A stretch of DNA of 64,000 nt from an uncultured virus (IMG/VR IMGVR_UViG_3300022833_000006) (IMGVR_UViG_3300022833_000006), one strand, 5' to 3'; positions 26,363 through 64,000 are shown, counted from the first letter of the stretch. The notes: generated from the sequence alone by a model not told the origin. Program-made: numbers and translations.

Positions 26363-26383
26363 ATATATATTTAAGTTGAGTGT

Positions 26384-26419: not shown

Positions 26420-26439
26420 ATTTAAAATAAAAAGAAACT

Positions 26440-27123: not shown

Positions 27124-27613
27124 AATAATATCTCATTACGGAATAAATGATTACTATAAATATTATAAAGAAAAATATCCTAACAGAGATATAACAAAAA
27201 AAGAATTTAAAAATATATATAGTTTATTTAATATAGAATTAGTAAAAGAAGTAATTGAAAAAGGTCAAATTAAATTACCTAAGAGATTTGGTCAAATAGA
27301 AATTATTAAAAAAGAAAGAAAAGTTTATATAAATAAAGAAGGTGTAGTTATTAATAATAAACCTATCAATTGGAAAGCTACTAAAGATTTATGGAAAGAA
27401 AATAAAGAAGCTAAAATTAACAAAATATTAATAAGACATAATAATAAACATACTGGTGGTTTTGTATTTAGAATATTTTATAATAAAAATATAGGTAAAT
27501 ATAAAAACAAAACTGTTTATTTTTTTAAACCAGTAAGAGATTTCTCAAGAAGTATAACTAAAAGAATTAATGATTATTCTAAGAGCAAATATGACGCTCA
27601 AATAAAACAATAA
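27113..27613 (+). CDS. IHF/HU-like basic protein of the crAss tail module
   Basis: IKLPKRFGQIEIIK, PINWKAT..LW, HTGG, FKPVR motifs; ATG 27113 preferred to TTG 27065. Confidence 0.65.
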   Translation: MTNKIISHYGINDYYKYYKEKYPNRDITKKEFKNIYSLFNIELVKEVIEKGQIKLPKRFGQIEIIKKERKVYINKEGVVINNKPINWKATKDLWKENKEAKINKILIRHNNKHTGGFVFRIFYNKNIGKYKNKTVYFFKPVRDFSRSITKRINDYSKSKYDAQIKQ

Positions 27614-27615
27614 CT

Positions 27616-28368: not shown

Positions 28369-28372
28369 TAAT

Positions 28373-32350: not shown

Positions 32351-32374
32351 TAGTATAAAATAAATCAATTAAAA

Positions 32375-32406
32375 TTAGTTTAAGAAAAATAAAAATAATA
32401 TATTTG
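32375..32406 (+). promoter_or_regulatory. Bacteroidota-type promoter (TTAG-N20-TATATTTG)
   Basis: TTAG 32375-32378 and TATATTTG 32399-32406 before ATG 32412. Confidence 0.6.
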
Positions 32407-32411
32407 TAATT

Positions 32412-35113: not shown

Positions 35114-35114
35114 A

Positions 35115-42066: not shown

Positions 42067-42069
42067 TAT

Positions 42070-50046: not shown

Positions 50047-50057
50047 AAAAATAAATT

Positions 50058-53000
50058 ATGGCGTGTAAATTAGACGTAGATGTAACTGTACAAAATCTTG
50101 TACAAAGAGAAGTAAAAAATATAAGTAAAATTACTAACGGTGTAGCAACTGTTACTCAAAAATTTGATAAAAGTGATTTAGATTCTATTAAAAGAATTAA
50201 TGATAAAGTAAACGAAAAAATGATTAGTTACGTAAGAAACGACGTAACTGATCTTCCTGGTACTGTTAATATAACAATATCAGATAAACTTTATAATCGT
50301 TACATGATTGCTATTGACAAGTTTAGGAACAGTAATAATGTTAATTATAAATTGTCAGCTGTAGAAATTCTTAATACTGATAAAGCTATACAAGTATTTG
50401 CTAAAGGTAAAAAGAATGGTTGGGATATTAATGAGACTTTAACAAAACTTCAAATACCTAAAGCGCAAAAACAACTTATATTAGATAAAAATATTACTGA
50501 TAGAGAAGAAATTATTACATCTTTATTAGCTGATAATAGTTTTGCTGTTGAAATTAAAATTGCTAAAAAAACTCAAACTAGAAATAACTCTAAAGATGTA
50601 GAATTTGAAGCTAATAATAGTTTATATAAATATTATAGTGATAGAAATATATATTATCAATTTAAAAGTGTTGATGATGGAGGGGGAAAAGTTGAAATAA
50701 CAAAAAAAGAATTTGATAAAATATATAATGAAGTACTTCCTAACACATCATATCATTCTACTTTAACAGTTCCAGGTGGTAGTAATTATACAGAAAATGC
50801 TATAAAAACTCCTAATATTATAAACAAATCAATAGCTCATATTAATGAGTTTAGTAATGGAATTGCTAATATGATTGGATGGTTTAGAAGTGATGAACAA
50901 CAATCTAAAAATAGAAATAAACTAACAGAGATGGGTAAAGATGCTCTTAGAGATGAGGGTATGTCTGAATATGAAATATCTGAGTTAGAAAAAGTTGAAA
51001 AATCTGGAGTACGTAGAATATTAGAATTACAATCTGACTTATTTCAAAAAAATAGAGATAAAAAAGATTTAATTATTAATGATGCTAGTTTAGACACAAA
51101 ATTAATTTCTGAAAACTTTGATACGGTTGAAGAATACGAAGAATATTTAGAATCTTCTAGTAAAAACAATAATTCAAATAATAATAATCAATTTTTACAA
51201 TTATTAAACAAAGAAGGTAATTGGGTTAATTTCTTTGTAAAATCTATTGTACAAGATAGTGTTAAAAAAGGTTATACAAAAGTATTATTTCCTACAGGTG
51301 AAACTGCTGCTAAAGTACAAAAGCATAAAACCTTGATGCAAGAATTAATAAAATATGATGATTTAATTAATAATGCAGATAAATATTATAATAAAGGTAA
51401 TGAAAGATTACCAGGAGGATATACTGCAGAAATTAATAATGATTATATTTTATATAGTAAAACAAAAGAAGGTTTTATTAAAAAAGCAAAAGAAAAAAGA
51501 CAAGAATTAGAAACTGAAAGTTTAGAAAAAAATAAACCTGTTGAAGCTTTTTATACTAATAAACTAACTAGTGTTCTTAATAAATTATACAAAGGACGTG
51601 TTCAAGAAATTACTGATGAATTTGGAAATACTTGGAATGAAGTTACTACAAAATTAGAAGATGCAAATCAATCATTTACTTTAAAGTTAGAACGTCAACA
51701 ATCTGAAAAAAAGGAATACAAATCTTTTGCGTTTGACAAAACAAAAGTTTCAATAGCTCCTGCTAACATATCAGAAGAAGAAACAAATAAAAACAAATCA
51801 GATGTATTAAATCAATTGTTTGATGGTACATTTAAACCTACAACATTAAATGATTTTCTTAGAAATTTATATTCTAATCCTAATATAAATATGAATGAAG
51901 AAGGTTTAGCTTTAATGAAAGCTTTATTACCTAGTAGATCTAAAATTAAATTTGTAACATCTGCAGTTTTAACAGATGAAGTTTTTGGTAGATATGATAG
52001 TTTAACTCGTACTATATTAATAAATAAAGACATTATAGGAGACTCTAATCTTTATTATGCTATAGAGTCTATATTACATGAAGGAACGCATGACATAACA
52101 GCTGTAGCTCTTAATCAACCTAAAACTGATAAACAAATTGCTTTTAGAAATAGTATACAAAAAGCTTACGATTATTATACTAAAGCTGTTGAATATAAAG
52201 ATTTAAAAGGTGATAATTATGGTTTTACTGATATAAATGAATTTGCATCAGAAATAATGACTAACACTGCTTTTAGAAGTAAATTAAAAGCTGTTGAAAG
52301 TCAAGAATCTGTATGGAAACAATTTATAAATGCAATTAAACAATTTTTAGGATTAAATATTGAAAAATACGACTCTATTAAAGTTGATCAAATTATAAAT
52401 TCTATTATAGACATTGCATCAGAAGAATATACTGATAATAATCAGTCATCTCTTAACATGACTTTTGAAAAAAGAACAAGTAGTAAAAAAGAAACTAGAA
52501 CTAAAGAAGAAATTGAATTAAATTTAATAGATAATTTAACAAATGTAAAAAGTCTTATTACTAGAATTTATGCAACTCTTGAAGATGTTAAAATTAAATC
52601 AGCAGATGCTAAAGGTGGTAAATATAAAGAAAAATATAGAGAAATTCAAGAAAGACTTAAAGAATTACAAGATAAATCTAAAGAAAAAGCAATACTTGAA
52701 TATCTTGAATTTTCAGTAACTGAATTAATAGGTTTAGAAAAAGGTTTAGAAAATAAAGAAAATCCTGATTTTAATTATTTAAGTAGATTTAAAGCTTATA
52801 TGGCTGTATTTTCTAATAATGATGCTATTGCTAACGTACTTATAAATTTAAAAAAGTATGATAAAATTACACAAGAAGATTATAATAAAATAGATAAAAC
52901 TTTAACTTTTGTAGTAGGAAAATATAAAAAAGTTAGTAAAGCATTAGATAATAAAATGAGAGATGCTTTAACTGAACCATTAGCTATAAAATTTGATAGA

Positions 53001-55580
53001 GTAAATACTGAATATCAAGATCAATATAAAATTGATTATAGAAATGAAATGCCTTATGGTATAACTAAAGATGAATATGTTTTCAATAAAATGAATGAAA
53101 ACATGGAAGTTATAGAAGCTGAAAAAAGAAGTAGAATAAGAAAAGGTCTTGACATTATTAATATGGATATCAGCAGTCTTGATTTACAACTTTCAAGTGA
53201 AAAACTAATAGACCATCCTTTAATTAGCATATTAAGCGAAAAAATAGACACTGTAGAAGCAAAAACAAGAAAAGCTTCTATTATTCAACGTAATAAAATA
53301 GCAGTAAGAGAAAGAAAAGCTAATTTTCAAGGTTCTTCTAATAAAAAACGTTATGATTTTATGCTTGATATTACTAAAGATAATCAATATTTTATAACTA
53401 AATACAAAGGTGAATTTAATGATATACTTGAAAATTTTCAAAATAAATTAAGTAAGTTAGAATACGGAGAAAAAGAACATAAAAAAGTTTCAAAAGAAAA
53501 GAAAGATTGGATTAAAGCTAACTTTAAAAAAGGAATACCTATTTCTAAATGGTTAAATCCTAAATATAAAAGTTTAACAGGTGTTCAAAAAGAATATTAT
53601 GATTCTTATGTTCAACAGTTAAAAGAAAATAATAAAAAAACAGTAGGTATAAATAGTTTATTTAATCAACCAATAGAAAAAGGTCCTATATTTATTAAAA
53701 TGGGAGGTATAACCCAATCAACTAGTGATAAAATATTAAGTGGTCAAGCTTTAAACGCAATTAAAACTAACGTTGGTGACGTATTTAAATCAAGAAAAGA
53801 TGAAGATACATATGGTAATGTAATTAATGAAGAAGAAGATACAATGTACGAACGTACTCGTACTGATCTTAATAATAAACCTATTCATTCTATTCCAGTT
53901 TACTATAGAAATAAATTAGAAGCAAAAGATCAATCATATGATTTGGGTACTATGCTTGCTATGGACACTATGATGTCCGAAAATTATCATAACAAAAAAG
54001 AAATAGAAGCAGAAGCTGATGTGTTGTTACATGTAATAAGTGGTTCACAAGTTATTAAAAGAAATTCTACTACAAAAGCATTTGTTGCAATGTTTAAAAA
54101 AGATGGTACTATATCAGAAGAAGATCTTGTAAAAATGCCTGGTAAAGATTCTAATTTATACAAAAAAGTTCAATCAATGATTGAAAACAGAATTTATGGT
54201 ATAAGTGATGTATATGCAGGTAAATTTATGGGAGTTAGTATAAATCAAGTTTCAAATTCTATAGCTGGTTATACAGCTGATTTACAACTTGCTTTAAATG
54301 CAATGACTGCTGTACCTAACGTTGTACAAGCTAAACTTCAAAATATGATTGAAGCAGCTGGTGCTGATATATTTACTTTAAAAGATTTAGTAAAAGCACA
54401 AGGTATATATATGAAAGAATTACCTAAAATATTAAACGATGTAGGTAGTACTATTAATACTAGTAAAATTAATATATTAAATGAACTTTTTGATACAATG
54501 GGTGATTTTAACATTATTAAAAATGCTTTTGAAAATAAAAGTAAATTAAGATCATTAGCTCATTCTGGAACAATGCATTCTTTAAATGCAATGGGGGAAC
54601 ATGAAGCTCAATCAACATTAATGATTGCTATAATGACTGCTACTAAAGTTAAAAACAAAGATGGTAAATTTATAAACAAAAATGGTAAAGTAGTTACTAA
54701 AAAAGAAGCAATGTCTTTGTATGAAGCTTATGAAATGAAAACTGATAAAGACGGTGTATCAAGTGTTGAAATAAACAAACATGCTGAATTTAGTTCCCAT
54801 AGTTCTAAGCCAATAAGAGAAGTTGGTGAAATACATCATCAACAATTAATAAGAAAATTAATTATTAAATTACACGGTCAATATGATTCTAAATTGCAAG
54901 CACATATAGAAAGAGCATGGTGGGGTAAACTATTTATGATGTTTAGAAAATGGATGATAAGTTCTTATAAACGTAGGTACGCAGGTGTTATGCATTCTAC
55001 AATTGAATCAAAAGATTTAACAGATGAACAAAAAATTTATGATTATGAAATGAAAAGATTTGATGAAGGTACTTACACTAGCTTTATTAGATTTATGAGA
55101 CATTCTGTCTTTCCAGCTGTATCTAGTTTTAAATTACAATTAGCTACTGAAAACTGGAAAGAAATGTCTGATATGGAAAGATCTAACGTTAGAAAAACAG
55201 TAACTGAACTTATGATAACAGGTATAATGGCAGCAGCAGCAATGTTAACATATGCAGCAGCTGAAGAAGATGATGATGATCTATTATTTACATTAGCTTA
55301 CATATTTAGAAGACAACAATCAGAATTTATGCAATTTTACGATATACGTGAAAATCTTAGAGTGTTTAGATCACCTGCAGTTTCACTTAACACTTTAGAA
55401 AAAACTTATTCTTTTATGACTCAAATAATGCCTTGGAGTATTGATGAAGAATATGAAAATGGTAAAAATAGAGGTGAATTAAAATCTTGGATTAAATTTA
55501 AAAAGTTAATACCAATGATTGCACAAACAGAACGTGACCCAAAAGAACTTTATAATTTTCTTGAAAATTCTGCTAAATAA
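50058..55580 (+). CDS. large polyvalent virion protein with a zincin metallopeptidase domain
   Basis: ILHEGTH (HExxH) plus downstream NEFASE; N-terminal domain with VPGG..Y.E, GWFRSD and ELQSDLFQK; C-terminal HGQY, MMFRKW and a hydrophobic helix. Confidence 0.75.
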   Translation: MACKLDVDVTVQNLVQREVKNISKITNGVATVTQKFDKSDLDSIKRINDKVNEKMISYVRNDVTDLPGTVNITISDKLYNRYMIAIDKFRNSNNVNYKLSAVEILNTDKAIQVFAKGKKNGWDINETLTKLQIPKAQKQLILDKNITDREEIITSLLADNSFAVEIKIAKKTQTRNNSKDVEFEANNSLYKYYSDRNIYYQFKSVDDGGGKVEITKKEFDKIYNEVLPNTSYHSTLTVPGGSNYTENAIKTPNIINKSIAHINEFSNGIANMIGWFRSDEQQSKNRNKLTEMGKDALRDEGMSEYEISELEKVEKSGVRRILELQSDLFQKNRDKKDLIINDASLDTKLISENFDTVEEYEEYLESSSKNNNSNNNNQFLQLLNKEGNWVNFFVKSIVQDSVKKGYTKVLFPTGETAAKVQKHKTLMQELIKYDDLINNADKYYNKGNERLPGGYTAEINNDYILYSKTKEGFIKKAKEKRQELETESLEKNKPVEAFYTNKLTSVLNKLYKGRVQEITDEFGNTWNEVTTKLEDANQSFTLKLERQQSEKKEYKSFAFDKTKVSIAPANISEEETNKNKSDVLNQLFDGTFKPTTLNDFLRNLYSNPNINMNEEGLALMKALLPSRSKIKFVTSAVLTDEVFGRYDSLTRTILINKDIIGDSNLYYAIESILHEGTHDITAVALNQPKTDKQIAFRNSIQKAYDYYTKAVEYKDLKGDNYGFTDINEFASEIMTNTAFRSKLKAVESQESVWKQFINAIKQFLGLNIEKYDSIKVDQIINSIIDIASEEYTDNNQSSLNMTFEKRTSSKKETRTKEEIELNLIDNLTNVKSLITRIYATLEDVKIKSADAKGGKYKEKYREIQERLKELQDKSKEKAILEYLEFSVTELIGLEKGLENKENPDFNYLSRFKAYMAVFSNNDAIANVLINLKKYDKITQEDYNKIDKTLTFVVGKYKKVSKALDNKMRDALTEPLAIKFDRVNTEYQDQYKIDYRNEMPYGITKDEYVFNKMNENMEVIEAEKRSRIRKGLDIINMDISSLDLQLSSEKLIDHPLISILSEKIDTVEAKTRKASIIQRNKIAVRERKANFQGSSNKKRYDFMLDITKDNQYFITKYKGEFNDILENFQNKLSKLEYGEKEHKKVSKEKKDWIKANFKKGIPISKWLNPKYKSLTGVQKEYYDSYVQQLKENNKKTVGINSLFNQPIEKGPIFIKMGGITQSTSDKILSGQALNAIKTNVGDVFKSRKDEDTYGNVINEEEDTMYERTRTDLNNKPIHSIPVYYRNKLEAKDQSYDLGTMLAMDTMMSENYHNKKEIEAEADVLLHVISGSQVIKRNSTTKAFVAMFKKDGTISEEDLVKMPGKDSNLYKKVQSMIENRIYGISDVYAGKFMGVSINQVSNSIAGYTADLQLALNAMTAVPNVVQAKLQNMIEAAGADIFTLKDLVKAQGIYMKELPKILNDVGSTINTSKINILNELFDTMGDFNIIKNAFENKSKLRSLAHSGTMHSLNAMGEHEAQSTLMIAIMTATKVKNKDGKFINKNGKVVTKKEAMSLYEAYEMKTDKDGVSSVEINKHAEFSSHSSKPIREVGEIHHQQLIRKLIIKLHGQYDSKLQAHIERAWWGKLFMMFRKWMISSYKRRYAGVMHSTIESKDLTDEQKIYDYEMKRFDEGTYTSFIRFMRHSVFPAVSSFKLQLATENWKEMSDMERSNVRKTVTELMITGIMAAAAMLTYAAAEEDDDDLLFTLAYIFRRQQSEFMQFYDIRENLRVFRSPAVSLNTLEKTYSFMTQIMPWSIDEEYENGKNRGELKSWIKFKKLIPMIAQTERDPKELYNFLENSAK

Positions 55581-55638: not shown

Positions 55639-56262
55639 TTATATATAGAATTCAAATTTTATTAATATCATATCACTACCGTTTGTACTAACGTATGGCA
55701 TTTTTTTAACATTTTTTAAATTAAATTCTTTTTTAAATATTTCAAAATCACAATCTTTATAACTATTTATGTCTACAACAATTATATTTTTATTATAATA
55801 TAATTTTATGTCTTCTAATATTTTATTAATTTCATTTTTTTTAGAATAAGAATTTAATAAAGATTGAAAATTACTTATAGAAACATTTTGGCAATTATCA
55901 AAAGGATTTGATATTACATTAAGTTTACCTGATCTATTATGATATGTTTTAATTTGACAATTATTAAGTGATGAAACTTTTACAACAGGTGTTTTAATTT
56001 GGTATTTTTTAAAATTATCAAGAACTTTTTTTCTTTTATAAACTAAATACCATTCAGGTATTATGTCTTCATTTATAAGAGTTTGATAATGTTCTTTATC
56101 TGTTATGTTATATAATGTTATTATAAAAATTAATAAAAAAATAAATAATATTGTTAAAAAAGGTATTGTTATAAGCATTGTTAAAAATAAAAACAGTGTT
56201 AAAAATAATCCAATTTTAAAATTATGATCATCATTTTGCATTATTTGATTTATATTTTTCAT
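55639..56262 (-). CDS. membrane-anchored hypothetical protein (paralog of 57540..58082)
   Basis: Long N-terminal hydrophobic segment; C-terminal NCQ/VDINS/NGSDM domain. Confidence 0.65.
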   Translation of the reverse strand: MKNINQIMQNDDHNFKIGLFLTLFLFLTMLITIPFLTILFIFLLIFIITLYNITDKEHYQTLINEDIIPEWYLVYKRKKVLDNFKKYQIKTPVVKVSSLNNCQIKTYHNRSGKLNVISNPFDNCQNVSISNFQSLLNSYSKKNEINKILEDIKLYYNKNIIVVDINSYKDCDFEIFKKEFNLKNVKKMPYVSTNGSDMILIKFEFYI

Positions 56263-56263
56263 A

Positions 56264-56536
56264 TTATGAATATTTTTTAAATAATTCTTTTTCTTTTTTA
56301 TTAATTTCTTTTTGAATATTGTGTTTACCGTATATTTTTACAAGTAAATTACATCGTATTAAAACATGAGCAAGTTCTTCATAAATTTTATCATCACTTA
56401 CTCCATTGCCTTTATTAACACGTTGTAAAAGAACTGTATTAAGTTCAGAAAGTTCTTCAGCAGCTTTAGTATGATTAAACTTAGGTTTATTTTTTTTAAT
56501 TAATAAATCTCTAAGTACTTTACTAATTTTTATCAT
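56264..56536 (-). CDS. MazG-like NTP pyrophosphohydrolase fold protein
   Basis: KAAEELSEL...IYEELAHV (ExxE...ExxD-like, with H in place of D). Confidence 0.6.
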   Translation of the reverse strand: MIKISKVLRDLLIKKNKPKFNHTKAAEELSELNTVLLQRVNKGNGVSDDKIYEELAHVLIRCNLLVKIYGKHNIQKEINKKEKELFKKYS

Positions 56537-57497
56537 TGTAAATTTTTTCTTTAATTATTTTTATAAGTTTTTTATATTGAGTATCTGTGCTTGTTGATCG
56601 TTTTCCATAATTAGGATTTGCTGTAATATAAACTTTAGCAATATCCATTAATGAAAGTACAGGTTTATTATACAAAAGATATTCTTCTGCTTTACCTGTG
56701 TCATAAAACCATAATCTATTTTTAGGTAGTTGAGTTTCATAACTTACTTGATATGTTTTAGCAATTATACAATCAGCACCATTAGATTGTGGAGCTACAC
56801 CATATAAAGTTAAATCATTAGAATTTGAATAAATTTTAAAACTGTCTTCTGTAGTAAACAATAATTTAGGTTTATTATCTTCAATATATTTAAAAGCAGC
56901 TTTTTTAGTTGAAAAATATTTAACATTATTTAAATCACCTTTCCATTTAAACATAGATGTAACTATACCTTTATTAATCCAACAACATTTATCATCTTTA
57001 TATATATCAACTCCATCTTCAGTTTTAAACAATGATTTTTTAATATGAGAAATATTACTTAACCCTTGTGTATAGTAATCAAAAAATATTATAATATCTA
57101 AATTATTGTTTGTTTTAAATTTTTCTATTTTTCCATTAGCTATATGACCTTTAATGTCATCTCCAACAGTAAATATTTCACCATCAGATAACCTTTTAAT
57201 TGATTGTATATCATATAAATGTAAAGTTCTTAAATCAATTACTTTTGTATAAAAAAATTTATTTTCTTTATGTTTAACGCATATTATCTCATAACTTTTT
57301 ATTTTTTCTTGTTTAATTTCAGAATTTATTAATTCCCAATATAATGGATTATTTTCAATAGATGATTTACCAAAATACAAAAGATAAAAAAAACCTTCTG
57401 GAAAGTAAACTAAATTATCTCTTTTATTACTTATTATTGAACCTATTTCAAGCTTTCCACAACCTGGATACCATTGTTTTAATTTATATCTTTTCAT
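56523..57497 (-). CDS. hypothetical protein with an internal duplication
   Basis: LFKTEDGVDIY...YIEDNKP and LFTTEDSFKIY...YLLYNKP. Confidence 0.65.
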   Translation of the reverse strand: MKRYKLKQWYPGCGKLEIGSIISNKRDNLVYFPEGFFYLLYFGKSSIENNPLYWELINSEIKQEKIKSYEIICVKHKENKFFYTKVIDLRTLHLYDIQSIKRLSDGEIFTVGDDIKGHIANGKIEKFKTNNNLDIIIFFDYYTQGLSNISHIKKSLFKTEDGVDIYKDDKCCWINKGIVTSMFKWKGDLNNVKYFSTKKAAFKYIEDNKPKLLFTTEDSFKIYSNSNDLTLYGVAPQSNGADCIIAKTYQVSYETQLPKNRLWFYDTGKAEEYLLYNKPVLSLMDIAKVYITANPNYGKRSTSTDTQYKKLIKIIKEKIYNDKN

Positions 57498-57539
57498 TAT
57501 TTTATTTTTTTATTATTAATATTTAAAAACTATTAAAAA

Positions 57540-58082
57540 TTATAAATTATAATCTCTATCAAAACTACCAAACATTACTCTATTAATAAGAGGAGCATTA
57601 TCATCATTTACTGAAAATTTATTTAGAGATTTCATATTCATAGAAAACATTATTAAAGTCATGTCTGAAGCATTACTGTTTTTATATTTAAGTTTAAAGT
57701 TAACAATATAATTTTTGCTAAATAATTCTACTATTCTGTCATAATATCTAGAATTAATATCTACTAATATCATTTTTTTACTTAAATAAGAACAACAAGT
57801 ATCAAGAAATTTACTAACAAAAATGTCATCACAATTTAATAAGATTTGACTATTAAATATACTTCCCCATTGACAATTTTTAGTAGGTGATTTAATTATT
57901 CTAATTACACCACCTCTAGTTTCTATTTCTTTATAAATAGAATCTCCTCTATTGGAAGTTAATTTATTTAGTTTCATACTAAGTATTTCTATTTTTTGAC
58001 AATCTTTTTCATGTGAAGATTTTTTAATTAAAATGCAATCTTTTGCAAAAATTCTAATTAACCATTTTATAAATTTTTCCAT
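57540..58082 (-). CDS. hypothetical protein (paralog of 55639..56262)
   Basis: Shared NCQ, VDINS and N(A/G)SDM.LI.F motifs. Confidence 0.65.
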   Translation of the reverse strand: MEKFIKWLIRIFAKDCILIKKSSHEKDCQKIEILSMKLNKLTSNRGDSIYKEIETRGGVIRIIKSPTKNCQWGSIFNSQILLNCDDIFVSKFLDTCCSYLSKKMILVDINSRYYDRIVELFSKNYIVNFKLKYKNSNASDMTLIMFSMNMKSLNKFSVNDDNAPLINRVMFGSFDRDYNL

Positions 58083-58564
58083 AATTCTTCTATTGTTTTA
58101 GGTATGTAATTTATGTTTTCAGCACATACATTAATATATCTTTTATCTTTTAAAGTATTTTTATGAACATGACCATGAATGTTATAATTAATTCTATGTT
58201 CAAGTTCCTGTGGGTGTACAGGGCAATGAGTAAGCCATATGTTGCCATATTTTTTATGACGTAATTTAACCATGCCGTGAATAGAGTTTACATAATTTAC
58301 AAGAGTTGATTTCACATGATTTCCCATATCATGATTACCTAATACAATACGTTTTATTCCATTTAACCTATTTAATATTTCATAATTAGCTTTTTCCATT
58401 GTTATGTCACCAAGTATCCATGTTGTATCATGTTTTCTTACTGTTTTATTCCACTCTTCTATTATATGCTCATCATGATAAAATTCATCATGAAAACCTC
58501 TCATTGTAGCCATACTTTTATGACCAAAATGTGGATCAGATATATATCTTATTACACTTGACAT
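58067..58564 (-). CDS. calcineurin-like metallophosphoesterase
   Basis: SDPHFGH, LGD, GNHD, THCP and HGHVH motifs; start set at ATG 58564. Confidence 0.88.
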   Translation of the reverse strand: MSSVIRYISDPHFGHKSMATMRGFHDEFYHDEHIIEEWNKTVRKHDTTWILGDITMEKANYEILNRLNGIKRIVLGNHDMGNHVKSTLVNYVNSIHGMVKLRHKKYGNIWLTHCPVHPQELEHRINYNIHGHVHKNTLKDKRYINVCAENINYIPKTIEELWKNL

Positions 58565-58878
58565 GCCATTCCAAAAATTATACCAATAAAAATACATATT
58601 ACACCAGTTATTAAATACACAAAAAAATTAATAGTAACTAAATCTGTGCCTGAAGTTATTTGAGCATTATAATATTGATTTTTTTTTGTTTTATAATACA
58701 AAGTATTACCTTCTTCATAAGCAATAATTGTATCACCTATAGTTTCTATTTGATTAATTCTTTCTGCAACATTTTTTCTTTGTTGTTCATTAAAATGACC
58801 TGATGTAAATGGTGCTGTTGAATCATTACATGATGATAGTGTTAATCCTAAAATTAAGATTATTATAAATTTTTTCAT
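58552..58878 (-). CDS. putative lipoprotein with a C-terminal TM helix
   Basis: MKKFIIILILGLTLSSC lipobox; hydrophobic C-terminus. Confidence 0.65.
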   Translation of the reverse strand: MKKFIIILILGLTLSSCNDSTAPFTSGHFNEQQRKNVAERINQIETIGDTIIAYEEGNTLYYKTKKNQYYNAQITSGTDLVTINFFVYLITGVICIFIGIIFGMACQV

Positions 58879-58889
58879 AGTTTGTTTTT

Positions 58890-58915
58890 AAAACCCACCT
58901 ATTTCTAGATGGGTT
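58890..58915 (-). terminator. stem-loop / terminator on the - strand
   Basis: Minus strand AACCCATCTA-GAAA-TAGGTGGGTT followed by a short T run. Confidence 0.6.
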
Positions 58916-58922
58916 GTTTTGT

Positions 58923-59240
58923 TTAATTTTCGTATTCACAAAGATAAGCTAATTTAGCATAATTTATCATATCTTCATATGAATCAAGTAAACTTTCGTT
59001 AGTTGGATCTTTGTTATCTTTTTTAAGATTGTTAATTCTTGATAATTTAAGTATAATCATTAACATTGCATATCCTTCTGGAGTACCAACATTAATATTT
59101 AACGTATTAACTACTGATGATACTTGTTTAAAGTTAGATAATACATCTTCATCTGCATAATCTTTACCTTTAGAGCTCATAATACTTAATGTTTTAGCAT
59201 CAAGTTCTCTTATTAATTTAATTTGTGTTCCTTTTATCAT
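58923..59240 (-). CDS. DUF1599 / Nmad1-like nucleotide-modification-associated protein
   Basis: KGKDYA..D.LSNF...KLSRI...ESLLDSYEDMINYA pattern. Confidence 0.6.
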   Translation of the reverse strand: MIKGTQIKLIRELDAKTLSIMSSKGKDYADEDVLSNFKQVSSVVNTLNINVGTPEGYAMLMIILKLSRINNLKKDNKDPTNESLLDSYEDMINYAKLAYLCEYEN

Positions 59241-59530
59241 TAATATAATATATAACCTATGATAACACCAATAACACTACCACATGCAGCACCACTAGCA
59301 TACCAAATTCTGTTTAGCAAACTTCCGAATGCCACTTTTTTTACATTAAAAGACCATAATAAAGATATTAAAAATCCTATAATAAATATTCCTATTAGAA
59401 TTATAAAATCTTGTTTTTTAACAAATGCTGCTATTTGATATGTATTTAAACATACTAGTATAACTTGCAAAAAGCCAGTTAAAAATAATTCTGCATTAGG
59501 GTATTTTTTTATTAAATCTTTAATTTTCAT
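59240..59530 (-). CDS. small membrane protein (3 TM)
   Basis: Three hydrophobic helices. Confidence 0.7.
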   Translation of the reverse strand: MKIKDLIKKYPNAELFLTGFLQVILVCLNTYQIAAFVKKQDFIILIGIFIIGFLISLLWSFNVKKVAFGSLLNRIWYASGAACGSVIGVIIGYILY

Positions 59531-60707
59531 TTTTTAAGTATTTTATGCATTCATTTACATTTTCATGATTAATAATATTATAAGATTTAAAATTTCCTAT
59601 AAATTTAGCTAACCATTTTTCTTCTTGTGTGTTTTTTGTAACTATTATAAAAGCTTTACCTTTAGTGTCACCTATACGTCTATGTCTACCCATTTTTTGT
59701 ACAGCACCTAATGATTTACTATAATAAGACATCATAATAAGGTTTTCCATACCTTGAATAGTAGCACCTTGTTCTAGCATTTTAAAACTAGCAATTACAT
59801 TTTCCTTACCTGTTTCAAACTGATTTCTAATAAAGTTATTTTTCTTTTCATTATTACGTGAAGAAATAACATTATTAGTAACAGTTAATAAACTATCAAT
59901 AGAATTACCAAAAATTAATACATTATTAAGATGAGGTAATAATTTATTAATTAATACAGTTTTACTAGGTAAATTATATAGTAATCTACTTCTACCTCCA
60001 ATAGCTAATCTAGCAAATAAATCTTTTTTTTCAGGACCAGCAAACATGCTTTGTCCTAATTTTTTATTTCAGTATTTGTAAGATTCTTCTTCTGTTTGAT
60101 AAAAAGGTTTAGCTTTATTACCGCTCTTAACAGACTTCTTTACAATGTCTAATTCATTGTAAATGATATGTATGTCCACTTCTCTATTAATATCGTTTAT
60201 ACGAGCTTTATCTAAGCTATACGTGTAACATACAGGTGCATATTTATCTAAATATTGACCTTTAGTAACAATTATACCTCCATCTTCGTATTCAACTGTT
60301 CTATCAATAGTAGCAGATAAACCTAAAACTGCTTTTGCTTTGTTAAATTTATGAAACTGCACATAAGAAGAAGTAAGTTGCATGTGAATTTCGTCACAAC
60401 CTACTAATCCAAATGATTTATTTCTTCATTTGTAAACTGTTTGATAACAATAAAACTTAAGATTATAAGTATTCATTGTTTCTTTATTAAATTTTTCATC
60501 AAAAGCTTTAATAGAATTTAGTAAATCTATTTTTCTTGCTGTTGTTTCTGCTAAAAACAAATGAATATCATCATTAACATTCATCGTATGTAATGCATGT
60601 AAAAATACAAACATTTTACCTAATGATGTTGCAAGACAAACAGTTCCTTTTTTATTAACAATTCATTTTATTAAAGCTTCTTTTTGGATTTTATCTCTTT
60701 TATCCAT
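59520..60707 (-). CDS. superfamily 2 DExH helicase-like protein (395 aa if 3 in-frame TGA are read as Trp)
   Basis: Three ORF-track fragments plus an upstream 14-codon start share one frame, separated only by TGA at 60663-65, 60426-28 and 60069-71; motifs ATSLGK, DEIH, LSAT, EQGATI, QKMGRHRR. Confidence 0.85.
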
Positions 60708-60743
60708 GTTTATGCTTATTAATTTTAATATGAAAATTTATAA

Positions 60744-60917
60744 TTAATTTCAGTAACTGTTTAAGCCTACTGTTTTTAAAGCTATAAATTGATCTACATC
60801 GTGAATATAATACAAAACTTTTTCTGATTCTGATTTTTGATTCGTTACCCATTTGTAAAAATCTATCCATAATAAATTGTGTTGTTTTAGTTTTTCAACT
60901 ATTTCCTTTTTTTCCAT
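60744..60917 (-). CDS. small hypothetical protein (MEKKEIVEKL...)
   Basis: Read manually; ends TAC TGA AAT TAA, so 55 aa, or 57 aa if TGA=Trp. Confidence 0.55.
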
Positions 60918-60964
60918 AATCTAATTACCACCATCCCACCCAGCCTTTAAGCTAATTTAATTTA

Positions 60965-62599
60965 TTAACTATGACATGAATCACAGTCATTTATTTCTCT
61001 TGCAAAACTTTGTGCTGCGCTTTGACTAAATTGATAATACAAGGTCTTTACTCCTGATTCCCAAGCATACATATAGAGTTTATTTATCTCTTTTGCTGGT
61101 ACTGAAGGGTGTATCATTAAATTTAATGATTGTGATTGATCAATATATTTTTGTCTTTGTGCTGCTTGTAACACAAGTTCTCTTGGTGAAATTTCAATAA
61201 ACGATTTAAATACTTCCTTTGTAGGAAAATCTAAATGTTGAACACTACCATCATTATCAAGAATACTATTCCATGTTTCTGGTGTATCAAGATTGTACTG
61301 TTGGAGTTGCGCTCTCAACATTTCGTTCTTGTATACAGTTTTAGCTTTAGCTAAATCTTTTATAAAATAATTAGATTTTATTGGTTCAATACCCATACTA
61401 ACCTGTCCTAATATATATGATGAGCTTTTAGTTGGTGCAATTGCCATTACCGTTGTATTAGCATATCCTTCTCGTATAGATTTTTTTCCTAAAAAATCAT
61501 GACACCATTTACTTGCTTTTTGTGATCTTTCATTTATTTCTTTAAATATTACATTATTCCAATATTTAGCCTTTATACTATCAACTTCTAATAATTCACT
61601 TTGCAGAAATGAATGCCAACCTAGTACGCCAAGCCCGATGGCTCTATGGTTTTTAGCAAATCTCCAAGCTCTCTTCATACCAGGAAGGTGCTCAGATTTT
61701 ATGATAAAGTCATCTATTACTGCATTAAGGAATTGAATATAAGTTTCTACAGCATCAGTCTTCTCAATTTCTTTCCAATGAAGTAAATTGATACTACCTA
61801 AACAACAAACAAAACTGTTGTAACTGTCCTGTGGTAGCTGTATTTCCGAACAAAGATTACTAGCTTTAATATCTAGTCCTAATTCTTTGTATGGACTATT
61901 GTTATTGGAATTGTCTTTAAACATAATATATGGAAAACCAAAATCTTTACGTTTCTGTATAATTTTAGCCCATATTTTTCTTTTATCAGTATCACTTTCT
62001 TTCATAGAATTCATCCACGCATCCGTGACCGTGACTCCAAATTGAAGATTCTGAATTGGATTTCCTTCGTCACCAATTCTAAGGAACTCCATTATGTCTT
62101 CATGCTCTACTGGTAGGTATAAAGCACAAGCTCCTCTTCTTGATTCACCTTGTTTACATTTATCTATAATTGTATCATAGATTTTTGCATAGTGAACAGG
62201 TCCATCCGCATTCCCACCACCTGAGATTGACGAACCGCGTTTTCTAATGTTACCTAAGTACATGGATGTTCCACCACCGTATTTAGACATCATACCTATT
62301 TCTCTTGCTCCATTTAGAATACTATCCATCGTATCATCAATGTCAGATCCGTAACAACTTATAGGTAAAGTTTTTTCATATCCAAAATTACACCATACAG
62401 GAGTTGACAAACTATAATAACCTAAAGCCATATAGTTTTCAAATTTTTCAGCTCAGCCTTTTACTCCTAGTATTCTTTCTGCGTGATTTGCTATGTCTTT
62501 AATTCTTTGCTCTGGAGATACCCCTTCTCTTAAGTATCCACGAGAAAGAAATTTTCTTGACTCTTCGTTAAGCCAATAATATCTATCTGTTTTATTCAT
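60965..62599 (-). CDS. nrdA: class I ribonucleotide reductase alpha subunit (544 aa with one TGA=Trp; no ATP cone evident)
   Basis: PISC, GGG, RRGA, SNLCSEI, CCLGS, APT.SSS, IDQSQS, KTLYY and C-terminal CxxC; upstream frame open to ATG 62599 across TGA 62453-55. Confidence 0.92.
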
Positions 62600-62652
62600 T
62601 TAATTTTTATATAACATTAATGACTATATTAACATAACCATTAATAGTTTTG

Positions 62653-63627
62653 TTAGAACAAGTCGTCCTCTGTTATACTTTCTGATTTTTTGTTATAATC
62701 AATACTTTTTTTATAAAAGAAATCACTTTCTTTGGTTGATTTAATTTCAACGTCAAACCACATTGTACTTTCTAACTTTTGAGTTTGGACCTCAAAAGCT
62801 TTACTCATTCCAATGCTTTCTAAACTGTTATTAAACCTGTTTTTAATAAATTCAGTAATTGTTTCCTTTGATAAGAAATCTAGTTCACCTTTTTCAAAAA
62901 TCCAATCCAAAACTTTACACTCGGCTTCAAGAGCCTTAACGCATGCAGATTTAATTATTTCTTCAAATTCTTTATCAAACCATTCAGGGTTTTCTTTTTT
63001 AATAATATTAATTAATTCAATACCAAAATTACCATGTACATCTTCTTCCTTGCTGGTTGCTTCTACTATATTTGACACTCCTTTAAATAAATTTAATTCT
63101 TTATTAAATGACATCATTATCAGAAACTGGCTAAATAAAGAAACGTGTTCTATAAATAGACTAAATAAAAGGATAGATTTTGTATACATCTTATCACTTT
63201 TACTTCTAGTTCCATCAAGGTATTTACTAAGATAAGAAATCCTATCTTTAATAGCTGGTACATCGGTAATTGTTTCAAATTCACTTTCTAAGCCAAGAAC
63301 TTCAAGTAAGTGTTTATAAGCATCAAAGTGCCTAGCTTCACTCTCACTAAATGTAGCTCCTACTGATTGAATTTCATATTTTGGTAGACGTTTATACAGA
63401 TCACCCCAAAACGCTTTCACGTTAACTTCTATCTGAGCAATTGCAAGCATGGATCGCTTGATTGCTTCACGTTGACTGTCTGTAACTTTAGTCATAAAAT
63501 CAGAAATGTCTTCTGTAATATTAAACTCAGTATGAATTCAGTATGAATGCCTTATTGCATTTTTATATTTAAGTAATTCGGGATACTCATAAGGTAACAC
63601 GTTTTTTCTTTTTTTAAATATATTCAT
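62653..63627 (-). CDS. nrdB: ribonucleotide reductase beta subunit (324 aa with one TGA=Trp)
   Basis: QIE, ESEARH..AY, EHVSLFSQF, KEEDVH di-iron ligands, DFF and C-terminal DLF; N-terminus PYEYP...AIRHSY[TGA]IHTEFN from ATG 63627. Confidence 0.93.
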
Positions 63628-63839
63628 TAAATTAGATTTTTAATAAAGTTATTTCTTCTTGTTACTGCTTCTTGTAGAGTTTTTCCTATACCTACATAAA
63701 AGCTTGTTGCTTTAGAATTATCTTTTACATTGACTCTAATTTCAAAATTACCAGTGTTTGTTCTTTTAGTAATTCCTTTAAATCCAGTGTTTGTTTTAAT
63801 TTTATTCATTTTTCTATCTTTTACCGTTTTGTTAAGCAT
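63627..63839 (-). CDS. standalone AP2-like DNA-binding domain protein
   Basis: NTGFKGIT.R..TG.F..RV......YVG...T..EA...R matches the AP2 pattern. Confidence 0.55.
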   Translation of the reverse strand: MLNKTVKDRKMNKIKTNTGFKGITKRTNTGNFEIRVNVKDNSKATSFYVGIGKTLQEAVTRRNNFIKNLI

Positions 63840-63999
63840 CTTTTACAAATACTCCATTTTGCATTTTACCAGTTCTTTTACTTATAATATTATAAGCACC
63901 TTCAAGGCAATCTGTTAAATTTACATTTTGTAATTCTGCTTGTAAAATGATTGTTACCAAAATATCACCAAGGGCGTCATTGATTTCTTCTTTATCATT
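63832..63999 (-). CDS. MazG-like family protein (partial, start outside the window)
   Basis: Read manually: ...EEINDALGDILVTIILQAE..NVNLTDCLEGAYNIISKRTGKMQNGVFVKDA*. Confidence 0.75.
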   Translation of the reverse strand, partial: NDKEEINDALGDILVTIILQAELQNVNLTDCLEGAYNIISKRTGKMQNGVFVKDA

Positions 64000-64000
64000 T

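What the first reader, a model, noticed from the sequence alone, without database searches (positions are those of the whole stretch)
59520..63627. TGA read as Trp, apparently only in helicase, nrdA and nrdB: module-restricted stop-codon recoding
Seen: five in-frame TGA codons split three genes, with no frameshift and no internal TAA or TAG. They are nrdB codon 30 (63538-40, AIRHSY*IHTEFN), nrdA codon 49 (62453-55, LGVKG*AEKF) and helicase codons 15, 94 and 213 (60663-65 EALIK*IVNK, 60426-28 QTVYK*RNK, 60069-71 SYKY*NKK). The same genes also use TGG (about 11 in nrdA, 4 in nrdB, 1 in the helicase). The long + strand ORFs, with many Trp, show no internal TGA, and genes end almost exclusively in TAA. 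Established: the nrdB site is the conserved R2 N-terminal Trp (W48-equivalent of E. coli R2). TGA-to-Trp recoding is known in some crAss-like phages, but has been described mainly in late structural and lysis genes. Inference: here the pattern is inverted. Full-length RNR and helicase would need opal suppression, which could act as a translational gate on dNTP supply and replication, for example via a phage suppressor tRNA, RF2 inhibition or host state.
Basis: partly seen in the sequence, partly recalled or inferred. Interest (0 to 1): 0.9.

Follow-up and report, generated by a model that had tools for sequence, protein, structure and literature searches.

The report
Early phage replication genes need TGA-as-tryptophan
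A salt-lake relative of the crAss-like phage phi14:2 writes some tryptophans as the stop codon TGA, but only near the start of certain early DNA-replication genes and never in its particle genes, which is the reverse of the published pattern for such phages.

Summary
The five in-frame TGAs are real, lie at the stated coordinates and are identical in other assemblies. They most likely encode Trp: standard-code relatives have TGG at nrdB 30 and helicase 15, 94 and 213. The "only helicase, nrdA, nrdB" part is an effect of the window edge. A near-identical record adds 26 kb, giving 16 TGAs in 9 of 46 minus-arm genes, including DNA polymerase, DnaB, RusA and MazG. The 40 plus-arm genes (capsid, tail, virion RNA polymerase) have 0 TGA against 123 TGG. 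No gene ends in TGA.

New points:
- TGAs sit near gene starts (median relative position 0.11, against 0.60 for TGG in the same genes).
- All 16 are followed by a purine.
- The same sites are TGA in four related lineages, although synonymous sites are saturated.

By synteny with phi14:2, this arm is the early class. I found no suppressor tRNA, release factor or TrpRS, even in a complete relative. An odd tRNA-like gene with an insert of about 80 nt occurs only in the recoded lineages, but shows no UCA anticodon.

Best reading: costly, competitive UGA-to-Trp decoding that throttles or gates early replication proteins. The decoder is unknown. This scan noted similar 5' placement on other DNA. I rate it a new variant of a known kind.

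The parts
59520..60707 (-). SNF2/ResIII-type helicase, 395 aa if TGA = Trp. It has 3 TGA (codons 15, 94, 213) and 1 TGG (codon 365).
   Evidence: ResIII 6-136, Helicase_C 261-346; phrog_16 DNA helicase. The helicase motifs that I read in the translation lie on both sides of TGA 94, so they are joined only by read-through. Standard-code relatives G008 and phi14:2 have TGG at 15, 94 and 213.
60663..60665 (-). Helicase in-frame TGA, codon 15
   Evidence: TGA also in G007; TGG in G008, phi14:2, L094, L095 and L097.
60426..60428 (-). Helicase in-frame TGA, codon 94
   Evidence: TGA also in G007; TGG in G008, phi14:2, L094 and L097.
60069..60071 (-). Helicase in-frame TGA, codon 213. Specific to this lineage.
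   Evidence: TGG in G007, G008, phi14:2 and L094.
60965..62599 (-). Ribonucleotide reductase large subunit (nrdA), 544 aa. It has 1 TGA (codon 49) and 11 TGG.
   Evidence: Ribonuc_red_lgC E = 5.5e-96; lgN 10-74 spans the TGA.
62453..62455 (-). nrdA in-frame TGA, codon 49
   Evidence: TGA also in G007. The codon is TTT (Phe) in 71 of the 73 loci where the site aligned (80 loci had a hit), and in G008. The site is aromatic but not a conserved Trp.
62653..63627 (-). Ribonucleotide reductase small subunit (nrdB), 324 aa. It has 1 TGA (codon 30) and 4 TGG.
   Evidence: Ribonuc_red_sm 7-281; 6sf4, E = 8.9e-134.
63538..63540 (-). nrdB in-frame TGA, codon 30, at a conserved Trp
   Evidence: TGG in 62 of the 64 loci where the site aligned; the other 2 are this phage. 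TGA in G003 and G007; TGG in G008 and phi14:2. W in solved NrdB 6sf4.
63832..64000 (-). 3' part of a MazG-like pyrophosphohydrolase gene (100 aa). It starts beyond the window end, and its TGA (codon 13) lies outside the window.
   Evidence: MazG, E = 6.3e-10. TGG in 5 relatives and in G008.
55639..59530 (-). Eight distal genes of the same minus (early) arm with no TGA (16 TGG). They include a DUF1599-like gene and a 176-aa gene that I read as a metallophosphatase by position against phi14:2 g063.
275..55580 (+). Plus arm of 40 genes: chaperonin-like, PhoH, large terminase, portal, major head protein, tail proteins, and giant virion proteins of 1613, 2658 and 1840 aa. It has 0 TGA, 123 TGG and no TGA stop.
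   Evidence: Matches the middle and late classes of phi14:2.

Best explanation
This is genuine UGA-to-tryptophan decoding in a clade of environmental Crassvirales related to Cellulophaga phage phi14:2. TGA is not used as a stop anywhere in the 90 kb seen. As a sense codon it is allowed only at a small set of sites: the 5' part of nine genes of the early, replication-module arm. These are DNA polymerase, DnaB-like and SNF2-type helicases, RNR large and small subunits, MazG, RusA and two unknowns.

I infer that UGA decoding in the infected cell is possible but inefficient. It probably competes with release factor 2, so each TGA costs yield. Selection therefore removes TGA from the abundantly made virion genes and from the distal parts of genes, where failure wastes most or gives long truncated proteins. 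TGA is left, or used, near the start of replication genes. There it acts as a throttle or gate that ties production of the replisome and dNTP-supply proteins to the cell's capacity to suppress UGA.

Shown: the TGA = Trp reading, the arm restriction, the 5' placement, the context bias, the conservation, and the absence of known code-change genes. Inferred: inefficiency, competition with RF2, and the gating role. Unknown: what decodes UGA.
For: TGA = Trp:
- Standard-code relatives have TGG at helicase 15, 94 and 213, nrdB 30, MazG 13, unknown-191 117, RusA 18 and 32, and DNA polymerase 83.
- Pfam domains span the TGAs. The DNA polymerase matches phrog_1252 over residues 6-641.

Arm restriction:
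- Plus arm 0 TGA and 123 TGG; minus arm 16 TGA and 103 TGG; p = 6.8e-6.
- The complete relative G007 has no TGA in any plus-strand gene listed over 400 aa. Its 5 plus-strand TGAs are in 3 small ORFs (77-197 aa) lying among the minus-arm genes.

No TGA stops:
- No TGA lies within 20 codons of an ORF end in the 86 genes. The one such case is in an ORF over the tmRNA, which I dropped as spurious. Standard-code G008 has 8 such ORFs among 115.
- Relatives end 26 of 415 ORFs in TGA.

5' placement:
- Median relative position is 0.11 for TGA and 0.60 for the 25 TGG in the same genes (MWU p = 2.9e-5; KS against uniform p = 1.9e-6).
- In the 5 genes that have both kinds (leaving nrdA out), all TGA precede all TGG (joint p = 5.6e-5). 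In nrdA the TGA is the 2nd of 12 Trp codons.

Not synonymous with TGG:
- Between this phage and G007, G-ending Lys/Glu/Gln codons keep G in only 33% of cases.
- TGG stays TGG at 52 of 52 sites in the minus arm and 87 of 87 in the plus arm, and TGA stays TGA at 8 of 10 (state association p = 1.3e-8).
- Against G003: TGG-TGG 47, TGA-TGA 11, and 2 switches.

Survivorship:
- TGAs shared across the deepest split all lie at relative position 0.26 or less (0 of 11 beyond 0.45). Of the lineage-restricted ones, 4 of 9 lie beyond 0.45 (p = 0.026; sites classified by hand).

Context:
- A purine follows 16 of 16 TGAs, against 66% after TGG (p = 0.0036).
- AAA precedes 6 of 16 TGAs, against 21 of 213 TGG (p = 0.005).

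Early class:
- The arm is syntenic with the phi14:2 replicative module. Passages of the Drobysheva et al. preprint describe that module as the early class, transcribed by the injected virion RNA polymerase.

No known machinery:
- No tRNA by ARAGORN in the window, in the 90-kb join or in complete G007.
- No group I intron and no tRNA at Rfam gathering score.
- No UCA stem-loop outside coding sequence.
- No RF-1 domain and no class Ib synthetase in G002, G003, G007 or G009.
Against: - Nothing shows that these proteins are made. No RNA run holds the phage, and there is no proteome.
- The decoder is unidentified, so 'inefficient, competitive decoding' is inferred only from codon statistics.
- TGA retention (8 of 10 and 11 of 12) equals the neutral expectation under the AT bias (79% and 89% of A-ending codons stay A). 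The data therefore show site-specific tolerance, not positive selection for a gate.
- A position-independent loss of yield would not by itself explain the 5' bias. The argument needs truncation cost, or read-through efficiency, to depend on position.
- The numbers are small (16 sites), and the four lineages share ancestry, so shared sites are not independent.
- Genes were called with a simple longest-ORF rule and ATG starts. Two TGAs at codons 4 and 5 depend on the chosen start.
- The early class is assigned by synteny to a phage with 73% identical major head protein, not measured.
- An estimated 10 kb of this phage was not seen (CheckV rates the 66.7-kb record 66% complete).
- Six of the 16 sites are not Trp in the outgroups (nrdA 49, unknown-191 17, DnaB 17 and 76, unknown-195 4, DNA polymerase 34), and one (DNA polymerase 5) did not align in any outgroup.
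Confidence: 0.55

Rival explanations
1. The host itself reads UGA as Trp. It is either a code-4 organism or one with weak or absent RF2. The phage needs no machinery, and the TGAs are drift under AT pressure with no regulatory meaning.
For: No suppressor tRNA, RF or TrpRS in a complete genome of the clade. The TGAs are in the earliest genes, which must be translated by the unmodified host. No TGA stops. Genome GC is 25-29%. TGA retention equals the neutral expectation.
Against: If TGA and TGG were equivalent, about 80% of Trp codons should be TGA, as for A-ending Lys/Glu/Gln codons. Instead 16 of 242 are TGA, and TGG is kept at 139 of 139 shared sites against G007. The strong 5' placement and the context bias are unexplained. 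The nearest cultured relative infects Cellulophaga baltica and is annotated intact in the standard code. An abstract seen in the listing names four bacterial phyla with UGA = Trp, and Bacteroidota is not among them. A 'leaky' host version merges with the best explanation.
Confidence: 0.2
2. The phage brings its own non-canonical decoder or RF2 antagonist, made from the head of the early transcription unit. The tRNA-like gene with a 76-88-nt insert in its anticodon loop is the candidate. The 5' TGAs would then be a timer that delays replication proteins until that factor has built up.
For: The tRNA-like gene scores 40.6 and 46.6 bits against Rfam tRNA. Four of its 7 acceptor-stem pairs show compensatory changes. 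It is present in 4 of 4 recoded lineages. By motif search it is absent from G004, G005, G006, G008 and phi14:2 bases 1-50,000. It lies upstream of every TGA-bearing gene in the direction of early transcription. In this phage, L112 and L113 it sits just after a tmRNA gene; in phi14:2 the region that holds the tmRNA is reported as very highly transcribed from the earliest time point.
Against: No UCA or CCA anticodon can be built from any junction that I tried by eye. The anticodon-side sequence differs among the four lineages. The 1-72 pair and the discriminator base do not look like bacterial tRNA-Trp (recalled identity rules). Co-occurrence is a single evolutionary event. The motif search is strict and could miss diverged copies. 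No candidate RF2 antagonist was identified.
Confidence: 0.15
3. The TGAs are true stops. The genes are pseudogenes, or they yield N-terminally shortened proteins by restarting after the stop, or the TGAs are sequencing errors.
For: Under table 11 the genes fall into pieces. Most TGAs are near the 5' end, so a restart would keep most of each protein.
Against: The sequence is identical in independent assemblies and in 4 runs. The same TGAs are kept in lineages with 55-96% protein identity, with no frameshift and no TAA or TAG. The residues before the TGAs are conserved: nrdB aligns to 6sf4 from residue 2, and the polymerase matches its PHROG family from residue 6. In the translations I read, helicase motifs lie on both sides of TGA 94 and a polymerase exonuclease-type motif lies before TGA 34. 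Helicase 213 and unknown-191 117 are mid-gene.
Confidence: 0.04
4. TGA encodes another residue: glycine as in code 25 hosts, selenocysteine, or cysteine.
For: Code 25 bacteria and their TGA-rich phages exist (passages). Six sites are not Trp in the outgroups.
Against: Nine sites align with TGG in standard-code relatives, including an invariant nrdB Trp. At no TGA site does an outgroup have a Gly codon, and only one has a Cys codon (TGT at polymerase 83 in the distant L097). No excess RNA structure lies downstream of the TGAs, which argues against SECIS-like elements (p = 0.49).
Confidence: 0.03

Closest known systems
TGA-to-Trp ('code 4') recoded phages of standard-code hosts: the Agate and Jade clades and some crAss-like groups (Borges et al. 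preprint 10.1101/2021.08.26.457843; Yutin et al. 2021, PMC7886860; passages read)
   Same: In-frame TGA at Trp positions. TGA given up as a stop. Block-wise use of the codon within one genome. The likely host phylum uses the standard code. A suppressor tRNA is often not detectable: per Borges et al., only 35% of code-4 genomes had one.
   Different: There, structural and lysis genes are always the recoded part, and early genes are standard or dual-coded. Here the virion arm is TGA-free and only early replication genes carry TGA. The density is very low (16 of 242 Trp codons). The strict 5' placement and purine context are not mentioned in the passages I read. No suppressor tRNA, RF1 or TrpRS was found.
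Dual-coded and single-coded blocks of the Mgcod study (preprint 10.1101/2022.06.29.495998; passages)
   Same: One block reads the same under either code, and the other needs the alternative code.
   Different: The roles are swapped. Here the late block is the dual-coded one, and the early block needs TGA = Trp.
Cellulophaga phage phi14:2 (NC_021806; Crassvirales, Steigviridae, Akihdevirus)
   Same: Major head protein 73% identical. About 100 kb. The same gene order in the replicative arm: polymerase, DnaB, thymidylate synthase, Sak4-like, primase, amidoligase cluster, UDG, RusA, exonuclease, pyrophosphatase, RNR beta, RNR alpha, SNF2 helicase. A tmRNA gene near the head of the arm.
   Different: phi14:2 is annotated intact in the standard code and has TGG at the shared Trp sites. 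No tRNA-like gene with an insert was found in its first 50 kb.
Natural leaky UGA read-through by tRNA-Trp, with context effects in E. coli
   Same: UGA is the leakiest stop. A purine after a stop codon is recalled to favour suppression, which would match 16 of 16 purines here.
   Different: Natural read-through of a few percent could not give useful yields through three TGAs in one gene. Nothing was measured here.
Earlier notes of this scan on other DNA (e1-5887027, e1-6044310)
   Same: One note describes TGA codons placed in the first ~80 codons of replication genes of a crAss-like phage and ten relatives. Another describes sparse UGA-for-Trp on the early strand of a freshwater crAss-like phage without a suppressor tRNA.
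   Different: These are unchecked AI notes on other genomes. The first phage is said to carry its own suppressor tRNA, and none was found here.

Membership tests
Stop-codon-recoded (TGA = Trp) phages as described by Borges et al. and Yutin et al. | In-frame TGA at positions where relatives have Trp | tested here: met
   TGG in standard-code relatives at 9 of 16 sites. nrdB 30 is TGG in 62 of the 64 loci where the site aligned.
Stop-codon-recoded (TGA = Trp) phages as described by Borges et al. and Yutin et al. | TGA no longer used to end genes | tested here: met
   No TGA-stop signature in the 86 genes. The one near-end TGA is in an ORF over the tmRNA that I dropped as spurious. Standard-code G008 has 8 such ORFs among 115, and other relatives have 26 of 415.
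Stop-codon-recoded (TGA = Trp) phages as described by Borges et al. and Yutin et al. | Recoded codons concentrated in late structural and lysis genes, with early genes compatible with the standard code | tested here: not met
   0 TGA in 40 plus-arm genes, and 16 TGA in 9 early-arm genes. The pattern is inverted.
Stop-codon-recoded (TGA = Trp) phages as described by Borges et al. and Yutin et al. | Phage-encoded suppressor tRNA(UCA), sometimes with RF1 or TrpRS | tested here: not met
   None found in the 90 kb of this phage or in complete G007. This feature is not universal in the family: 35% of code-4 genomes per Borges et al..
Organism-wide genetic code 4 | TGA is the main Trp codon in an AT-rich genome (80-90% according to the Mgcod preprint) | tested here: not met
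   16 TGA against 226 TGG. TGG is conserved at 139 of 139 shared sites against G007, while synonymous A/G sites are saturated.
Crassvirales, Akihdevirus-like (phi14:2 group) | Homologous head, portal and terminase genes, giant virion RNA polymerase module, two divergent arms | tested here: met
   Major head protein 73% identical to phi14:2. Terminase, portal and head PHROGs match. There are proteins of 1613, 2658 and 1840 aa next to the arm junction. The replicative arm is syntenic. No formal phylogeny was made.
Class I ribonucleotide reductase (NrdA and NrdB) | Large-subunit barrel and small-subunit ferritin-like domains over their full length | tested here: met
   PF02867 E = 5.5e-96 and PF00268 E = 1.5e-56, in both cases only when TGA is read through. 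NrdB matches 6sf4 at E = 8.9e-134.
Bacterial tRNA (for the tRNA-like gene outside the window) | Cloverleaf with a 7-nt anticodon loop and a readable anticodon | tested here: inconclusive
   The acceptor, D and T arms match, and the acceptor stem covaries. In place of the anticodon loop there is a 76-88-nt insert, and no anticodon is shared among the four lineages.

The most novel reading that the evidence does not exclude
The TGAs in the first ~100 codons are a dedicated translation lock on the replisome and dNTP-supply genes of an early operon. The lock is opened by a kind of code-switch machinery not yet described. That could be the clade-specific tRNA-like RNA with a large anticodon-loop insert, or an RF2 antagonist made from the immediate-early region. 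Phage genome replication would then be timed or host-gated at the level of stop-codon suppression, with no canonical suppressor tRNA.
Probability: 0.2. Interest if true: 0.9.

Novelty: new variant of a known kind. Interest (0 to 1): 0.72.

Why it matters
Stop-codon recoding in phages is currently explained as a way to hold back late and lysis genes until a phage suppressor tRNA appears. That model requires early genes to be readable in the host's code. Here a conserved clade does the opposite. The first genes transcribed after injection need UGA read as Trp, the virion genes avoid TGA entirely, and no known code-change gene is present.

If this holds, the late-gene model is incomplete. UGA suppression must be available at the very start of infection, from the host or from an unknown phage factor. 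The 5' placement of the TGAs also gives a concrete, testable rule for how costly codons are tolerated or used as gates.

There is a practical consequence too. Standard gene callers will split the polymerase, helicases and RNR of these environmental Crassvirales, and may score them as broken.

Tried and rejected
- Whole genome of the window: not held.
- Bridging the unseen part of the genome: exact patterns from the window start and from the start of G002 found nothing in viral or metagenome contigs. A protein near that end gave no longer contig.
- The two ~100-kb metagenome relatives (L112, L113) could only be read as loci of about 20 kb. Their records are not held, and my region format was wrong.
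- A weak tRNA-like hit at L083:303-368 (17 bits) has anticodon-loop letters that give ACU, not UCA. I set it aside.
- ARAGORN with introns allowed and relaxed thresholds gave 11 calls. None has a TCA anticodon, and most lie inside genes.
- Scan for 5-bp stems with a YUUCARN loop: all hits lie inside or antisense to coding sequence.
- Group I intron or split suppressor tRNA, a lead from earlier scan notes: no hit at Rfam gathering score in this phage or in G007.
- Anticodon of the tRNA-like gene: I tried every split of the loop by eye. The results were CAA or GAA, CUU, AAA, and UAU or AUA in the four lineages, never UCA or CCA. RNAalifold gave no consistent anticodon arm.
- tmRNA as part of the recoding: rejected. 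Standard-code phi14:2 and G005 have one, and none was detected in recoded G007 by ARAGORN genome-wide, by Rfam at gathering score genome-wide, or by Rfam at E up to 1 over 65-73 kb.
- RNA structure downstream of the TGAs: no difference from TGG sites.
- RNA evidence: no RNA holder was listed for the stretch, so expression and splicing could not be examined.
- Two small G007 ORFs upstream of the tRNA-like gene have TGA 4-17 codons before their end and might use it as a stop. They have no homologues, so this is undecided.
- megablast of the region against GenBank phages: no match.
- Earlier notes on this genome, or matching the tRNA-like sequence: none.

Full report
**1. The observation**

Under table 11 the three genes fall into fragments. 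There is no frameshift and no internal TAA or TAG. Pfam domains run across the TGAs: ResIII 6-136, Ribonuc_red_lgN 10-74 and Ribonuc_red_sm 7-281. In the whole window, 52 non-overlapping ORFs of 70 aa or more hold these five TGAs and no others. All of them end in TAA except two that end in TAG. The window is 27% GC and has no tRNA by ARAGORN.

**2. Not an artefact**

An IMG/VR record (handle G002, 66,723 bases) matches window 23726-64000 with 4 mismatches in 40,275 bases, none at a TGA. Contigs from three public runs labelled salt lake metagenome carry window 55600-64000 with no differing letter. These runs may include the source sample. Pieces from a fourth run carry 0-1 differing letters.

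**3. The window edge hid most of it**

G002 continues 26,448 bases beyond the window end. In a working join of 90,448 bases, the minus arm runs from 55639 to the end. It holds 46 ORFs with 16 in-frame TGAs in nine genes:

| Gene | TGAs |
|---|---|
| SNF2-type helicase | 3 |
| nrdA | 1 |
| nrdB | 1 |
| MazG-like | 1 |
| Unknown, 191 aa | 2 |
| RusA-like resolvase | 2 |
| DnaB-like helicase | 2 |
| Unknown, 195 aa (at the position of the phi14:2 replisome organiser) | 1 |
| DNA polymerase | 3 |

Other genes of the same arm have none. These include thymidylate synthase (11 TGG), a primase-like gene (7 TGG), UDG (6 TGG), a Sak4-like ATPase, and the amidoligase/amidotransferase cluster.

The plus arm has 40 ORFs: chaperonin-like, PhoH, terminase, portal, major head protein, tail proteins, and three giant proteins. 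It has 0 TGA against 123 TGG. The contrast with the minus arm (16 against 103) gives Fisher p = 6.8e-6. So the 'only three genes' claim fails, while the 'module-restricted' claim holds in a wider form.

**4. What TGA means**

I compared the TGA sites with relatives that use the standard code. G008 is a complete 101.6-kb genome whose TGAs lie at ORF ends, as stops do. Cellulophaga phage phi14:2 is cultured and annotated intact.

- These relatives have TGG at helicase 15, 94 and 213, nrdB 30, MazG 13, unknown-191 117, RusA 18 and 32, and polymerase 83.
- nrdB 30 is TGG in 62 of the 64 loci where the site aligned. The other two are this phage.
- The closest solved NrdB (6sf4 and 5olk, E about 1e-133) has the same 13-residue motif with W at that site.
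- Six sites have other residues in the outgroups, mostly Phe, Tyr, Leu or Lys, and one site did not align. These seven are consistent with Trp but not proven.
- Gly, Sec or Cys readings have no support. No TGA site aligns with a Gly codon, and a Cys codon appears once, in one distant relative.
- I did not test the equivalence with E. coli R2 W48.

**5. TGA is not a stop here**

A real TGA stop read through under table 4 would appear as a TGA a few codons before the next TAA or TAG.

- G008 shows 8 such ORFs among 115.
- This phage shows none among 86 genes. The single case lies in an ORF over the tmRNA gene, which I dropped as spurious.
- G007 shows 2 small ORFs that remain undecided.
- More distant relatives end 26 of 415 ORFs in TGA.

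**6. New regularities**

*(a) Position.* The 16 TGAs have a median relative position of 0.11. The 25 TGG codons in the same nine genes have a median of 0.60 (MWU p = 2.9e-5; KS against uniform p = 1.9e-6). In the five genes with both codon kinds, leaving nrdA out, every TGA precedes every TGG (joint p = 5.6e-5). In nrdA the TGA is the second of 12 Trp codons.

*(b) Context.* All 16 TGAs are followed by A (12) or G (4), against 66% purine after TGG (p = 0.0036). AAA precedes 6 of 16 TGAs, against 21 of 213 TGG (p = 0.005). There is no excess RNA structure downstream.

*(c) Conservation.* Three further lineages carry the same pattern:

- G003, with its longer twin L112.
- L113.
- G007, a complete genome of 100,482 bases with terminal repeats, whose major head protein is 90% identical.

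All of the following are TGA in G007 as well: helicase 15 and 94, nrdA 49, nrdB 30, MazG 13, unknown-191 17, RusA 18 and 32, unknown-195 4, and polymerase 83. G007 has no TGA in any listed plus-strand gene over 400 aa. Its 5 plus-strand TGAs are in three small ORFs (77-197 aa) that lie among the minus-arm genes. I take these to be antisense artefacts.

**7. TGA and TGG are not interchangeable**

Between this phage and G007, orthologues average 60% identity. G-ending Lys/Glu/Gln codons keep their G in 33% of cases, close to the background, so these synonymous sites are saturated. Even so:

- TGG stays TGG at 52 of 52 shared Trp sites in the minus arm and 87 of 87 in the plus arm.
- TGA stays TGA at 8 of 10 (association p = 1.3e-8).

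Against G003 the counts are TGG-TGG 47, TGA-TGA 11, and one switch each way.

TGG is therefore strongly protected almost everywhere, including downstream in the same genes that carry TGA upstream. TGA retention (80-92%) is no higher than the share of A-ending codons that stay A (79-89%). The data therefore show site-specific tolerance rather than proven selection for TGA.

TGAs shared across the deepest split all lie at relative position 0.26 or less (0 of 11 beyond 0.45). Among lineage-restricted TGAs, 4 of 9 lie beyond 0.45 (p = 0.026). I classified these sites by hand. This looks like survivorship: TGAs arise anywhere but last only near gene starts.

**8. Which genes these are in time**

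The closest cultured relative is phi14:2 (major head protein 73% identical; Crassvirales, Steigviridae, Akihdevirus; host Cellulophaga baltica). Its replicative arm is syntenic with the minus arm here. Passages of the Drobysheva et al. preprint state three things:

- The early class of phi14:2 is the entire replicative module, transcribed by the injected virion RNA polymerase.
- The expression and capsid modules are middle and late, transcribed by the host polymerase.
- Non-coding regions near the head of the early arm are transcribed at very high levels from the first time point.

By homology, the TGA-bearing genes here are early genes.

That is the reverse of the published picture. Passages of Borges et al. 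(preprint), Yutin et al. 2021 and the Mgcod preprint place recoded codons in late structural and lysis genes. They describe early and replication genes as standard or dual-coded, with replication genes 'variably' recoded in some clades where the late genes are recoded too.

My searches and passages turned up no report of an early-only pattern or of 5' placement. Supplements of the preprints were not available to me and could hold such cases.

Two unchecked notes of this scan on other DNA describe similar things: e1-5887027 (5' placement in replication genes) and e1-6044310 (sparse early-strand UGA without a suppressor).

**9. Who reads UGA**

I found nothing known.

- ARAGORN finds no tRNA in the window, in the 90-kb join or in complete G007.
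- Rfam at gathering score finds only a tmRNA in this phage and nothing in G007. It finds no group I intron.
- No UCA stem-loop lies outside coding sequence.
- There is no RF-1 domain and no TrpRS-class synthetase in G002, G003, G007 or G009.

One unusual gene stands out, just downstream of the tmRNA and outside the window (L083:3217-3368). It is a tRNA-like sequence scoring 40.6 bits, and 46.6 bits in G007. It has conserved D and T arms and an acceptor stem with compensatory changes in 4 of 7 pairs. Where the anticodon loop should be, there is a 76-88-nt insert.

This gene is present in all four recoded lineages. A strict motif search did not find it in G004, G005, G006, G008 or the first 50 kb of phi14:2. 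It lies upstream of every TGA-bearing gene. However, no junction that I tried gives UCA or CCA, and the anticodon side is not conserved. I rate it only a weak candidate.

**10. Reading**

Most likely, UGA is decoded as Trp in the infected cell but at a cost, probably in competition with RF2. That would explain the following together:

- The loss of TGA stops.
- The near-total protection of TGG.
- The exclusion of TGA from abundantly made virion genes.
- The purine context.
- The survival of TGA only near the start of early genes, where failed decoding is cheapest.

Whether the phage exploits this as a gate on replication and dNTP supply, or merely tolerates it under AT pressure, cannot be settled from sequence. 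The main rival is a host that reads UGA as Trp. Its strong form is hard to square with TGG being kept at 139 of 139 shared sites. Pseudogenes, errors and other residues are effectively excluded.

**11. Verdict**

This is a real feature and a new variant of phage stop-codon recoding.

Noticed in passing
outside the window: L083:2595-3041 (+), about 23.4 kb beyond the window end, on the minus strand in window orientation: Phage-encoded tmRNA (Rfam RF00023, 58.1 bits, gathering score 47; ARAGORN tag ending in LAMAA). Also in L112, L113, G005 and phi14:2 (4031-4500, not annotated there). Not detected in G007.
   Followed up: partly
outside the window: L083:3217-3368 (+); L184:8082-8225 (-); L112:6296-6448; L113:2543-2694: tRNA-like gene with conserved acceptor, D and T arms, and a 76-88-nt insert in place of the anticodon loop. 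The acceptor stem covaries. No anticodon is shared among lineages. Found only in the TGA-bearing lineages. ARAGORN at default settings misses it.
   Followed up: partly
outside the window: L083:503-552 (+); L112:2986-3037; L184:12525-12578 (-): A short twister-P1-like ribozyme motif (43-49 bits, below the gathering score of 67.2, E about 1e-7 to 1e-8). It recurs at the same place, near the head of the early arm, in three lineages. In this phage it follows a hairpin with a T-run that I read by eye.
   Followed up: no
window 1449-2864 (+) and 4272-4922 (+): A GroEL-like chaperonin gene (phrog_5725, E = 1.4e-79) and a PhoH-like gene sit at the start of the plus arm, ahead of the terminase.
   Followed up: no
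window 25427-26362 (+): A gene matching 'DNA polymerase exonuclease subunit' (phrog_403, E = 5.6e-56) lies among the virion genes. It has 7 TGG and no TGA. TGA use therefore follows the arm, not the replication function.
   Followed up: no
outside the window: L083:13564-19188, L084:1322-2836 and L001:1326-3446: A cluster of amidoligase, COOH-NH2 ligase, class I and class II glutamine amidotransferase and gamma-glutamyl cyclotransferase genes in the early arm, as in phi14:2 g037-g041. It has no TGA, and its function is unknown.
   Followed up: no
G007 (L184): 65508-66131 (-) and 61964-62158 (-) in record coordinates: G007 carries a GIY-YIG-type endonuclease-like ORF with TGA at codon 4, next to the polymerase. 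Its DnaB-like gene appears split: a 64-aa N-terminal ORF keeps the TGA that matches codon 17 here.
   Followed up: no
window 60708-60964: A 257-base gap between nrdA and the helicase holds only two overlapping ORFs of 55-56 aa. I did not examine it.
   Followed up: no
L193 (phi14:2) 9636-12081: The phi14:2 DNA polymerase is annotated as a two-piece join, which suggests an intervening sequence. The polymerase of this phage is a single frame apart from its three TGAs.
   Followed up: no
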